Origin: Nitrosopumilus sp. | GTDB lineage: Archaea; Thermoproteota; Nitrososphaeria; Nitrososphaerales; Nitrosopumilaceae | NCBI GenBank assembly: GCA_965205675.1 | Contig: OZ242186.1 | Coordinates: 1,504,001-1,568,000, forward strand | Length of the DNA stretch: 64,000 nt | Direction: 5' to 3' | Shown: positions 595 through 59,679 of the stretch, piece after piece | How the letters are laid out: every line of letters starts with the position of its first letter | Numbering within the stretch: the stretch's first letter is position 1 | Program-made: the position numbers and the translations under genes | Notes under the pieces: generated by a model | Database searches by the model: none | What the model was told of the DNA's origin: nothing | Seen by the model: only the letters and a program-made list of their open reading frames with translations

Positions 595-1527
595 ATGTTT
601 GCAGTGTGGTTTAGGGTAATTCGCATACGTTTTCTATTAGCATCTGTTATTGCTGTATCCGTAGGACTGTCTCTGAATTGGTGGCAGCACTCTTCAATAG
701 ATTTGATGGATGCACTTCTTACTTTTGGAGGTGTTATGGCACTTCATACTAGTGTTGATTTATTAAATGATTTTTGGGATTTTAAACGCGGTATTGACAC
801 TGCAACAAAAAGAACAAAAATGAGTGGCGGTACTGGCGTACTGCCTGAAGGCTTGCTTACACCCTCTTCTGTTTATCGTGCTGGTATTGCATTTTTAATA
901 ATTGGATCTATGATTGGCAGTTACTTTGTTATTACTGATGGCATCACCATTGCCATAATTCTCGGGTTTGCAATCTTATCTATTTATTTTTACTCTACTA
1001 AAATCATTGACTCTGGTTTGGGGGAATTTTTTGTGGCTGTAAAAGGTGCAATGATTGTCATTGGAACTTTTTTTATTCAATCTGGGCAAATTTCTGTAGA
1101 ATCTATCCTTGCCGGAATTTCTGTAGGATCTCTTTCTGCACTAGTATTGTTTATTGCATCTTTTCCTGATCATGATGCAGACAAGTCCAAAGGCAGAAAA
1201 ACTTTGGTGATTGTAGTAGGAAAACAAAAAGCTGCGAAGTTATTTTGGGTTTTTCCTTTAGTTTCTTATTTGGCAATAATCATTGGTGTTGCTACCACCC
1301 TTTTTCCAGTATTTTCTTTGATCAGCTTATTTAGCATCCCACTCATGATAAAATCGGGATTTGGATTACAGAAAAATTACAATTTTGTAAACGATCTTGT
1401 CCCATACATGTCTACAACTTTGATGTTTAGCAGAGTTACTGGAGCGTTGTTTGTGATTGGATTTTTAATTTCTGTCATGTGTAATCAGTTTTTCGATAGC
1501 TTCTTGTTACTGGAGCGTTGTTTGTGA
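595..1527 (+). CDS. menA: UbiA-family prenyltransferase, MenA/UBIAD1-like; C-terminus altered by an insertion
   Basis: NDFWDFKRGID and DHDADKSKGRKTL aspartate-rich motifs, multiple TM helices. Confidence 0.75.
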   Translation: MFAVWFRVIRIRFLLASVIAVSVGLSLNWWQHSSIDLMDALLTFGGVMALHTSVDLLNDFWDFKRGIDTATKRTKMSGGTGVLPEGLLTPSSVYRAGIAFLIIGSMIGSYFVITDGITIAIILGFAILSIYFYSTKIIDSGLGEFFVAVKGAMIVIGTFFIQSGQISVESILAGISVGSLSALVLFIASFPDHDADKSKGRKTLVIVVGKQKAAKLFWVFPLVSYLAIIIGVATTLFPVFSLISLFSIPLMIKSGFGLQKNYNFVNDLVPYMSTTLMFSRVTGALFVIGFLISVMCNQFFDSFLLLERCL

Positions 1528-1541
1528 TTGGATTTTTAATT
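1435..1541 (+). repeat. Exact 36-bp direct repeat flanking a unique 35-bp insert (single repeat-spacer-repeat unit)
   Basis: gttactggagcgttgtttgtgattggatttttaatt at 1435-1470 and 1506-1541; insert tctgtcatgtgtaatcagtttttcgatagcttctt at 1471-1505. Confidence 0.95.
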
Positions 1542-1588
1542 GGAATGTAACACTTTAACATAAATTTAGCAAATTATTTAGAAATTAT

Positions 1589-59595: not shown

Positions 59596-59605
59596 TACAA
59601 AACAG

Positions 59606-59679
59606 TGCCGCGGGCGGGATTTGAACGCGCGACAGCCCGGTCTTCAGCCGAGTGCTCTCCCAGGCTGAGCTACCACGGC
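59606..59679 (-). tRNA. tRNA-Phe (GAA), intronless, CCA not encoded
   Basis: GCCGTGGTAGCTCAGCCTGGGAGAGCACTCGGCTGAAGACCGGGCTGTCGCGCGTTCAAATCCCGCCCGCGGCA folds as a cloverleaf. Confidence 0.93.

What the first reader, a model, noticed from the sequence alone, without database searches (positions are those of the whole stretch)
1435..1541. CRISPR-like repeat-spacer-repeat unit inside a housekeeping gene: candidate natural off-target Cas1-Cas2 integration
Seen: an exact 36-bp segment of the MenA-like coding sequence is duplicated (1435-1470, 1506-1541) around a unique 35-bp insert. Removing insert plus one repeat gives a clean end VTGALFVIGFLIGM-stop; the present allele reads through the insert to give SVMCNQFFDSFLLLERCL. 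The insert has no terminal inverted repeats, and the duplication is much longer than the 2-10 bp TSDs of the ISs here. The duplicated segment starts GTTAC, like many CRISPR repeats. Established: Cas1-Cas2 inserts spacers of about 30-40 bp while duplicating one repeat length, and off-target integration has been shown experimentally in E. coli. Inference: this is a fixed ectopic spacer acquisition that remodelled a protein C-terminus. No cas genes are in the window. An alternative is an attL/attR scar of an almost fully deleted integrative element.
Basis: partly seen in the sequence, partly recalled or inferred. Interest (0 to 1): 0.85.

Follow-up and report, generated by a model that had tools for sequence, protein, structure and literature searches.

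The report
Stray CRISPR spacer inside menA-like gene
A 35-base foreign snippet flanked by an exact 36-base duplication at the end of a quinone-synthesis gene is most likely a CRISPR "memory" that was pasted into the wrong place, one of about a dozen such misfires in this archaeal genome.

Summary
An exact 36-bp direct repeat (window 1435-1470 and 1506-1541) brackets a unique 35-bp insert at the 3' end of a MenA-like UbiA prenyltransferase gene. All 11 aligned congeners carry the empty site, and contigs of 4 public runs from 3 studies hold the unit.

The genome has a type I-B cas4-cas1-cas2 module with a 12-repeat array (30-nt repeats, 34-37-nt spacers). It also has 10 more isolated repeat-insert-repeat units whose unrelated inserts are 32-40 bp long. 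Three units duplicate exactly 30 bp at repeat-like sites. Eight, including this one, duplicate about 37 bp (period 70-73). One insert is copied from the genome's own chromosome. Three further units have empty copies in paralogous or orthologous IS elements.

The 37+35 geometry matches a second type I CRISPR family: 37-nt repeats, spacers mostly 35 nt. That family is common in the genus and mobile in one congener, but I found no trace of it in this genome.

Best reading: fixed off-target Cas1-Cas2 spacer integration (about 0.85). Which integrase did it is open: a lost or in-trans 37-nt-type system, or the resident one with a relaxed ruler. No protospacer was found. The phenomenon is known experimentally, and this is a rich natural archaeal case.

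The parts
595..1527 (+). Present MenA-like UbiA prenyltransferase ORF (310 aa). After the first repeat copy it reads through the insert and into the second copy in a shifted frame, ending ...SVMCNQFFDSFLLLERCL-stop.
   Evidence: ORF list; Pfam PF01040; best NCBIfam hits are MenA models, all below their curated cut-offs, with homology ending near residue 292-297.
1435..1470 (.). Copy 1 of the duplicated target segment (36 bp). It is native coding sequence for the last transmembrane stretch, ...VTGALFVIGFLI.
   Evidence: Exact repeat; a single homologous copy in 11 of 11 aligned congeners.
1471..1505 (.). 35-bp insert of spacer length. It is unique in the genome and its source is unknown.
   Evidence: unique; absent from 11 of 11 relatives. 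Its length falls within the range of the resident array's spacers, 34-37 nt. No exact match in the viral, metagenome or genome collections.
1506..1541 (.). Copy 2 of the duplicated target segment (36 bp), now read out of frame. It contains the present stop codon TGA at 1525-1527.
1542..1550 (+). Ancestral last two codons and stop (GGA ATG TAA), now downstream of the new stop.
   Evidence: restored-ORF computation; the relatives' ends.

Best explanation
The unit is a fixed off-target (ectopic) CRISPR spacer integration. A Cas1-Cas2 adaptation complex carrying a roughly 35-bp prespacer attacked the chromosome at two phosphodiesters about 36-37 bp apart on opposite strands, inside the last codons of the menA-like gene. 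Gap repair then duplicated the intervening 36 bp, giving target-insert-target.

The gene keeps its whole conserved body. Its 2-residue tail is replaced by an 18-residue read-through tail, which is presumably tolerated.

Shown:
- The unit is an insertion plus duplication relative to congeners.
- The genome has an intact adaptation module.
- Ten sister events exist, with inserts of spacer length.
- Three of these events have 30-bp duplications at repeat-like sites.
- One insert was copied from the genome's own chromosome.

Inferred: the enzyme. My committed version, at about 0.5 absolute, is that this unit and the seven other roughly 37-bp events were made by an integrase of the genus's second type I system (37-nt repeats, spacers mostly 35 nt). 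That system is mobile, and it has since been lost from this genome or acted in trans. The nested alternative, the resident 30-nt integrase, is listed as the first rival.
For: 1. All 11 aligned congeners have the empty site.

2. The genome encodes Cas4, Cas1b (437 bits) and Cas2, plus Cas3, Cas5b and Cas7. Next to them lies a 12-repeat array of 30-nt repeats with 11 spacers of 34-37 nt.

3. A genome-wide scan gives 11 clean isolated units with exact duplications of 30-39 bp and inserts of 32-40 bp. Among 47 isolated exact direct repeats of at least 24 bp lying within 1 kb of each other, 14 have gaps of 30-39 bp, and 10 of those 14 are these units.

4. The three 30-bp events match the resident repeat at 15, 18 and 19 of 30 positions, where the null mean is 9.6 and the 99th percentile is 15. 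They share its ATTnCAA end.

5. Empty sites exist for three more units. Unit 1474824 lies in 1 of 7 otherwise identical IS copies. Units 1478538 and 1479353 have empty counterparts in an own-genome paralog and in G052 and G015.

6. The insert of unit 1774762 has 5 exact copies in a tandem gene family of the same chromosome. In the congener G052, the insert of unit 1421049 likewise has an exact second copy. This is copy-and-paste of a spacer-sized piece.

7. The congener G052 has the same array type and a single Cas1. It carries 3 such events, two of them stacked as target-insert-target-insert-target.

8. The eight longer events have periods of 70-73 bp and a mean duplication of 37.6 bp over seven of them (unit 732797, 32 bp, was left out of the mean). 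The genus's second array family has 37-nt repeats, periods of 69-76 bp and spacers of 32-39 nt with mode 35 (n=93).

9. One end of the duplication is G in 9 of 14 events, against 31% expected (p=0.01). This fits the G preference reported for P. furiosus Cas1-Cas2 (abstract and Results/Discussion passages of PMC6698737).

10. The unit stands in contigs of 4 runs from 3 studies.
Against: - No protospacer for this insert was found: 0 exact matches in IMG/VR, JGI metagenome contigs and GTDB genomes, nothing credible in phage records, and 0 of 8 ectopic inserts tried were found in IMG/VR.
- The duplication is 36 bp, not the resident repeat's 30 bp.
- The duplicated segment resembles neither repeat family: 12 of 30 identities with the resident repeat and 14 of 36 with the 37-nt family, both at null level. 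The eight longer events as a set are not repeat-like either (p=0.40 and p=0.22).
- The 37-nt system is not in this genome. There is no such repeat and no such cas gene, and only one Cas1. Yet unit 1474824 is younger than a burst of 7 identical IS copies, so any loss would have to be very recent.
- No consistent PAM emerges from the two self-protospacers.
- Everything is inferred from sequence. No integrase activity was measured.
Confidence: 0.85

Rival explanations
1. This is nested within the best explanation. The resident 30-nt-repeat type I-B Cas1-Cas2(-Cas4) made this unit. At sites that carry the repeat's end motif it cuts 30 bp apart. At sites without the motif it falls back on a protein-set stagger of about 37 bp.
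For: It is the only Cas1 in this genome and in G052, and both genomes have roughly 36-38-bp events. Unit 1474824 is very recent, being 1 of 7 identical IS copies, which fits an enzyme that is still present. In Haloarcula type I-B the size of the duplication follows internal repeat motifs and becomes aberrant when their spacing is altered (abstract of PMC4872114).
Against: In P. furiosus the off-target stagger equals the repeat length, 30-31 bp (PMC6698737). The aberrant sizes reported for Haloarcula are 29-33 bp, not 37. The tight cluster at about 37 bp equals the repeat length of the genus's other CRISPR family. That would be a coincidence under this reading. G052 has a remnant array of the other family.
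Confidence: 0.35
2. A mechanism unrelated to CRISPR made the unit. Candidates are an attL/attR scar of a deleted integrative element, a transposon footprint, or filler-DNA capture at a staggered double-strand break.
For: No protospacer or PAM supports a CRISPR origin for this insert. The duplicated segment is not repeat-like.
Against: All 11 aligned relatives have a clean empty site with no element. The 11 inserts are unrelated to each other. I saw no terminal inverted repeats in them when reading the sequences; this was not tested with a tool. Insert lengths (32-40 bp) track the spacer lengths, and the duplications fall into two tight classes that equal the two repeat lengths of the genus. 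From recall, IS target duplications are 2-15 bp and casposon duplications are 14-15 bp.
Confidence: 0.1
3. The unit is an assembly or sequencing artefact.
For: The genome comes from a single assembly. De Bruijn contigs break at the 36-bp repeat, so no single Logan contig spans the whole unit.
Against: Overlapping contigs cover flank-repeat, repeat-insert-repeat and repeat-flank with 0 differences in X2 only. X4 and X6 cover the left flank-repeat and repeat-insert-repeat pieces. X5 has one piece running from the end of copy 1 through the insert and copy 2 into the right flank. That is 4 runs from 3 studies. Ten sister units share the same geometry.
Confidence: 0.02

Closest known systems
Off-target ('non-canonical') spacer integration that spawns neo-CRISPR loci in E. 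coli (Nivala, Shipman & Church 2018). The paper itself is not held; I saw it only through citing passages in bioRxiv 10.1101/148544 and PMC7054753.
   Same: A spacer-sized insert outside any array, with duplication of the target. The citing passages mention circumstantial evidence in two other species.
   Different: This case is natural, fixed and in an archaeon. There are 11 events in one genome, in two duplication-size classes. The event studied duplicates 36 bp, whereas the resident repeat is 30 nt.
In vitro off-target full-site integration by Pyrococcus furiosus Cas1-Cas2 (PMC6698737; abstract and Results/Discussion passages).
   Same: Integration at non-CRISPR sites, a preference for G or C at the attacked positions, and sites that share features with the repeat. 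The three 30-bp events here behave in just this way.
   Different: In that work the stagger is 30-31 bp, equal to the repeat length. The event studied here and its seven siblings have about 37 bp and are not repeat-like.
Repeat-length ruler of Haloarcula hispanica type I-B (PMC4872114; abstract only).
   Same: A type I-B system with a 30-bp repeat. The size of the duplication is set by internal motifs and can be aberrant.
   Different: The aberrant sizes reported are 29-33 bp within a mutated repeat. They are not 36-39 bp at unrelated chromosomal sites.
Ectopic spacer acquisition inside arrays in Streptococcus type II-A systems (PMC7999890; search listing and abstract start only).
   Same: A spacer is integrated away from the leader-proximal repeat.
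   Different: Those events use genuine internal CRISPR repeats. Here the target is coding sequence with no likeness to a repeat.
Casposon integration by Cas1-like casposases (PMC6614799, listing and abstract start only; the target-duplication size is recalled).
   Same: Cas1-family chemistry with a target-site duplication.
   Different: Casposons are kilobases long, have terminal inverted repeats and (from recall) duplicate 14-15 bp. No second Cas1-family gene is in this genome.

Membership tests
Product of Cas1-Cas2 spacer integration | An insert of the system's spacer length | tested here: met
   The insert is 35 bp. The resident array's spacers are 34-37 nt. Spacers of the 37-nt family are 32-39 nt with mode 35, n=93.
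Product of Cas1-Cas2 spacer integration | A target duplication equal to the repeat length of the integrase's own array | tested here: inconclusive
   The duplication is 36 bp. This is not met for the resident 30-nt repeat. It is met within 1 bp for the 37-nt family of the genus, which is not found in this genome.
Product of Cas1-Cas2 spacer integration | cas1 and cas2 present in the genome | tested here: met
   One cas1 and one cas2 at C1:699.6-700.9 kb, typed as Cas1b, with cas4 alongside.
Product of Cas1-Cas2 spacer integration | An empty site in relatives (an insertion, not ancestral sequence) | tested here: met
   11 of 11 aligned congeners have one copy and no insert.
Product of Cas1-Cas2 spacer integration | The insert is traceable to a protospacer with a consistent PAM | tested here: not met
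   0 exact matches in three collections and nothing credible in phage records. Two sister events, one here and one in G052, do have self-protospacers, but their flanks show no shared PAM. Only exact matching was possible in the large collections.
Product of Cas1-Cas2 spacer integration | The target resembles the repeat, as in published off-target sites | tested here: not met
   12 of 30 identities with the resident repeat and 14 of 36 with the 37-nt repeats, both at null level. Only the 5' G is shared. The three 30-bp sister events do meet this feature.
Bona fide CRISPR array | A non-coding repeat shared with other arrays, a leader, and usually three or more repeats | tested here: not met
   The repeat is the coding sequence of a conserved gene. 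It occurs only twice in the genome, and there is only one insert.
IS or transposon insertion | Terminal inverted repeats, a transposase or an element family with multiple copies, and a short target duplication | tested here: not met
   The insert is 35 bp, unique, and unrelated to the other 10 inserts. The 12-mer shared with an IS is internal to that IS.
attL/attR scar of an integrative element | Relatives or strains carrying an element at the site, and remains of an integrase or element | tested here: not met
   None of 11 aligned congeners has an element at the site. The 35 bp hold no gene.

The most novel reading that the evidence does not exclude
Stray integrations record which CRISPR systems a lineage has hosted. 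The duplication length of each stray unit equals the repeat length of the integrase that made it. This genome's eight roughly 37-bp units would then be footprints of a mobile 37-nt-repeat type I CRISPR-Cas element. In a congener that element sits as a roughly 22-kb insertion, and here it has visited and left without any other trace.

The converse reading is equally new: a type I-B integrase with two discrete rulers, a motif-anchored one of 30 bp and a default one of about 37 bp.
Probability: 0.45. Interest if true: 0.75.

Novelty: new member of a known kind. Interest (0 to 1): 0.62.

Why it matters
From what I could read, off-target spacer integration has been shown with over-expressed E. coli Cas1-Cas2 and in vitro, and natural evidence was called circumstantial (passages). 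This genome offers 11 natural, pristine events with defined empty sites, and a congener offers 3 more. They show several things:

- Adaptation modules do hit chromosomes in nature, including a housekeeping gene, a tRNA-like gene and IS copies.
- Self DNA is captured.
- The events fall into two sharp geometric classes.

This gives a natural data set for studying how integrases choose targets and measure the repeat. It shows how new arrays could be seeded: a stacked two-insert unit exists in G052. It also puts a cost on carrying CRISPR. The mismatch between the roughly 37-bp class and the resident 30-nt array is a concrete puzzle that can be tested.

Tried and rejected
- **IS remnant.** The insert's first 12 bases recur 11 more times in the genome, 10 of them inside copies of one IS. 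The word lies inside that IS, not at an end, and only 12 bases match. Rejected.

- **Protospacer searches.** The 35-mer gave 0 exact matches in viral contigs, metagenome contigs and genome contigs. blastn of the unit and of the whole resident array against phage records gave only chance-level hits. Seven other ectopic inserts gave 0 exact matches in viral contigs. The resident array searched against 150 genus genomes found other arrays but no spacer targets. Only exact matching was possible in the big collections, so diverged protospacers would be missed.

- **A 5' T bias in spacers.** It appeared in the small resident array (7 of 11) and in 6 of 8 of the longer-class inserts. It is not seen in larger arrays of the same family. 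Dropped.

- **Likeness of the longer-class targets to either repeat family.** Not significant as a set. One unit, 1479353, reaches 21 of 37 identities (single-test p=0.002).

- **Candidate units dropped.** For 30670, the 'insert' is native sequence with a homolog in G052. 422831 is low-complexity sequence. 98278 is ambiguous: 25/39, or 32/32 with one mismatch. Two diverged candidates, 1247934 (period 72) and 1480041 (period 75), were seen but not verified.

- **Empty sites for units 199961 and 1599699.** Their flanks have no homolog in the 40 genus genomes searched. No conclusion.

- **Remnants of the 37-nt system.** None found in this genome by tblastn or blastn. No such array in plasmid or phage records.

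- **Reads.** The k=31 contigs cannot tell an empty allele from a filled one, because the repeat is 36 bp. The lower depth of the insert piece in X4 (31 against 41) is not interpretable.

- **Not available.** The Nivala 2018 paper is not held. Supplements of papers were not opened.

- **Not done.** No structure prediction, complex prediction or protein-homolog search was run, because none bore on the question.

Full report
**What is there**

Window 1435-1470 and 1506-1541 are identical 36-mers separated by a unique 35-bp insert. The window is G000:C1:1504001-1568000 of a single-contig 2.01-Mb genome with 33.7% G+C.

The unit sits in the last codons of a UbiA-family gene (Pfam PF01040). The best NCBIfam matches of that gene are MenA-type 1,4-dihydroxy-2-naphthoate prenyltransferases. 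All are below their curated cut-offs, and the homology ends near residue 292-297.

The present ORF (595-1527, 310 aa) reads through the insert and stops inside the second copy. Removing 71 bp gives a 294-aa ORF ending GM-stop at 1548-1550.

**It is an insertion, and it is real**

A search of 40 relatives split the query exactly at the unit. The 11 congener loci that I aligned all show one copy of the segment followed by 2-3 codons and a stop. Contigs of four public runs from three studies hold flank-repeat, repeat-insert-repeat and repeat-flank pieces without a single difference. Those k=31 contigs break at the 36-bp repeat, so they cannot show whether an empty allele co-exists.

**The genome has the machinery**

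One cas1 and one cas2 are present. NCBIfam names the neighbourhood Cas4, Cas1b (type I-B), Cas2, an inserted IS630-family transposase, Cas3, Cas5b and Cas7/Csh2. Next to cas4 lies an array of 12 copies of a 30-nt repeat with 11 spacers of 34-37 nt. The mutated repeat is at the far end, so the leader faces cas4.

**The unit is one of a family**

I scanned the genome for exact words recurring at short range. Besides the array and ordinary tandem repeats, this found 11 isolated units of the form target-insert-target. Given as start (duplication length/insert length), they are:

| Unit (start in C1) | Duplication (bp) | Insert (bp) |
|---|---|---|
| 199961 | 30 | 37 |
| 439378 | 30 | 35 |
| 1478538 | 30 | 35 |
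| 541166 | 37 | 35 |
| 732797 | 32 | 40 |
| 1474824 | 38 | 35 |
| 1479353 | 37 | 36 |
| 1505435 (this finding) | 36 | 35 |
| 1599699 | 38 | 34 |
| 1704607 | 39 | 33 |
| 1774762 | 38 | 32 |

- Of 47 isolated exact direct repeats (at least 24 bp, within 1 kb), 14 have gaps of 30-39 bp, and 10 of those 14 are these units.
- The inserts are unrelated to each other.
- Most units lie at gene ends, between genes or in IS copies.
- Unit 541166 splits a tRNA-Phe-like gene. Its acceptor stem is perfect only in the restored form.

**Independent empty sites**

- Unit 1474824 lies in one of seven otherwise identical copies of an IS. The other six have a single copy of the 38-mer and no insert.
- Units 1478538 and 1479353 lie in another IS-like element. 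Its paralog in this genome and its copies in G052 and G015 are empty.
- For units 199961 and 1599699, the flanks have no homolog in the 40 genus genomes searched.

**Where inserts come from**

The 32-base insert of unit 1774762 has five exact copies in a tandemly repeated gene family of the same chromosome. The match runs on for two more bases, which resets that event to 36/34.

No other insert has a second copy in the genome. This finding's insert has no exact match in IMG/VR, JGI metagenome contigs or GTDB genomes, and nothing credible in phage records. Seven other inserts also gave nothing in IMG/VR. A review of thaumarchaeal mobile elements states that most thaumarchaeal spacers match nothing known (Discussion passage of PMC6563490).

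**Two geometric classes**

The three 30-bp events duplicate exactly the resident repeat length. They match the repeat at 15, 18 and 19 of 30 positions (null mean 9.6, 99th percentile 15) and share its ATTnCAA end. This is what was described for P. furiosus Cas1-Cas2 in vitro: off-target full-site integration at G/C positions 30-31 bp apart, in sequences that share features with the repeat (PMC6698737).

The other eight events, including this finding, have periods of 70-73 bp and a mean duplication of 37.6 bp over seven of them (unit 732797, 32 bp, was left out of the mean). As a set they are not like the resident repeat (p=0.40). This finding's segment has 12 of 30 identities, which is null level.

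One end of the duplication is G in 7 of 11 events here and in 9 of 14 when G052 is included. The expectation is 31% (p=0.025 and p=0.010).

**A second genome repeats the pattern**

I fetched the whole 1.84-Mb contig of the congener G052. It has a large array of the same 30-nt family and a single Cas1. It holds:

- A stacked unit, target-insert-target-insert-target (35/37 and 36/36, period 72). The stacked unit was later copied within a duplicated element.
- A 36/38 unit in one copy of an IS. Six other copies carry the 36-mer once, with one mismatch each. Its insert has an exact second copy elsewhere in G052.
- A three-repeat remnant of a different repeat family.

**The second CRISPR family**

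That remnant led to large arrays in at least eight of 150 genus genomes, but none in this one. The repeat is 37 nt, the periods are 69-76 bp, and the spacers are 32-39 nt with mode 35 (n=93).

In G157 the array adjoins Cas7, Cas5b, Cas3, a divergent Cas1, Cas2 and Cas4. The whole roughly 22-kb block there interrupts a gene that is intact in this genome at about C1:730,480, and it is bounded by short repeats. It is therefore mobile or was precisely gained.

This genome has no repeat or cas gene of that family. I found none in plasmid or phage records either.

**Reading**

The evidence points to off-target Cas1-Cas2 integration (about 0.85):

- insertion with duplication at several sites;
- spacer-length inserts that are unrelated to each other;
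- self-derived inserts;
- an intact adaptation module;
- repeat-like 30-bp events;
- the same picture in a congener.

For this unit the geometry (36+35) fits the 37-nt family better than the resident one, and published off-target staggers equal the repeat length. I therefore favour an integrase of that mobile family, since lost or acting in trans (about 0.5). Against that, no trace of the family remains, and unit 1474824 is younger than a burst of identical IS copies. The resident enzyme with a relaxed ruler therefore stays a serious alternative (about 0.35). Non-CRISPR mechanisms (about 0.1) explain neither the two sharp size classes nor the spacer-length inserts.

**Known or new**

Off-target integration and 'neo-CRISPR' loci were reported for E. 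coli, with circumstantial evidence in two other species. I saw this only through citing passages, because the paper is not held.

I ran six literature searches: off-target integration, neo-CRISPR, the title of the 2018 paper, ectopic spacer, and Nitrosopumilus with CRISPR and type I-B. None turned up a natural archaeal catalogue of such events or a roughly 37-bp class in a 30-nt-repeat genome. Supplements were closed and subscription journals are not covered. The genus name used is my guess from composition and gene content, not a tool result.

I file the finding as a new member of a known kind, with an unexplained geometric twist.

Noticed in passing
G000:C1:9808-9905 (outside the window): An orphan mini-array of two repeats, 28/30 and 26/30 identical to the resident 30-nt repeat, with a 38-bp spacer. 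It lies far from the cas genes.
   Followed up: partly
G000:C1:541136-541274 (outside the window): One ectopic unit splits a tRNA-Phe(GAA)-like gene. The restored form has a perfect 7-bp acceptor stem, while the present form has two mismatches at its top. ARAGORN lists four other tRNA-Phe predictions in the genome, one of them in the window at about 59605-59679.
   Followed up: partly
G000:C1:701.2-702.3 kb (L015 13265-14263): An IS630-family transposase gene sits between cas2 and cas3 of the type I-B operon. The adaptation genes are intact, but expression of the interference genes may be affected.
   Followed up: no
G157:C1:about 1444.7-1466.8 kb, compared with G000:C1:about 730,480: In a congener, the whole 37-nt-repeat type I CRISPR-Cas block (about 22 kb, with an IS6-family transposase) is inserted into a gene that is intact in this genome. 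It is bounded by a repeated ACATCACAAATACC word, so it looks like a CRISPR-Cas system carried by a mobile element.
   Followed up: partly
G000:C1:1474-1480 kb (outside the window): Three pristine ectopic units, and one diverged candidate at 1480041, cluster within 6 kb in a patch of IS copies. Two other units lie 100-150 bp from the ends of a roughly 1.25-kb 12-copy IS.
   Followed up: partly
G052:C2:53744-53927 and 679581-679764: A stacked ectopic unit with three target copies and two inserts. The two duplications are offset by 4 bp. The unit is present twice because the surrounding element was duplicated. It could be a seed of a new array.
   Followed up: partly
G000:C1:1336-1346 kb (outside the window): Five tandem copies, with a period of about 1.9 kb, of a 330-363-aa gene. 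They are the source of one self-derived insert. The region also holds 21-bp tandem repeats.
   Followed up: no
Just before the window start, G000:C1:about 1503.5 kb, and nine other sites: A 10-copy IS. One copy ends about 0.5 kb upstream of the window. It shares only a chance 12-mer with the insert.
   Followed up: yes
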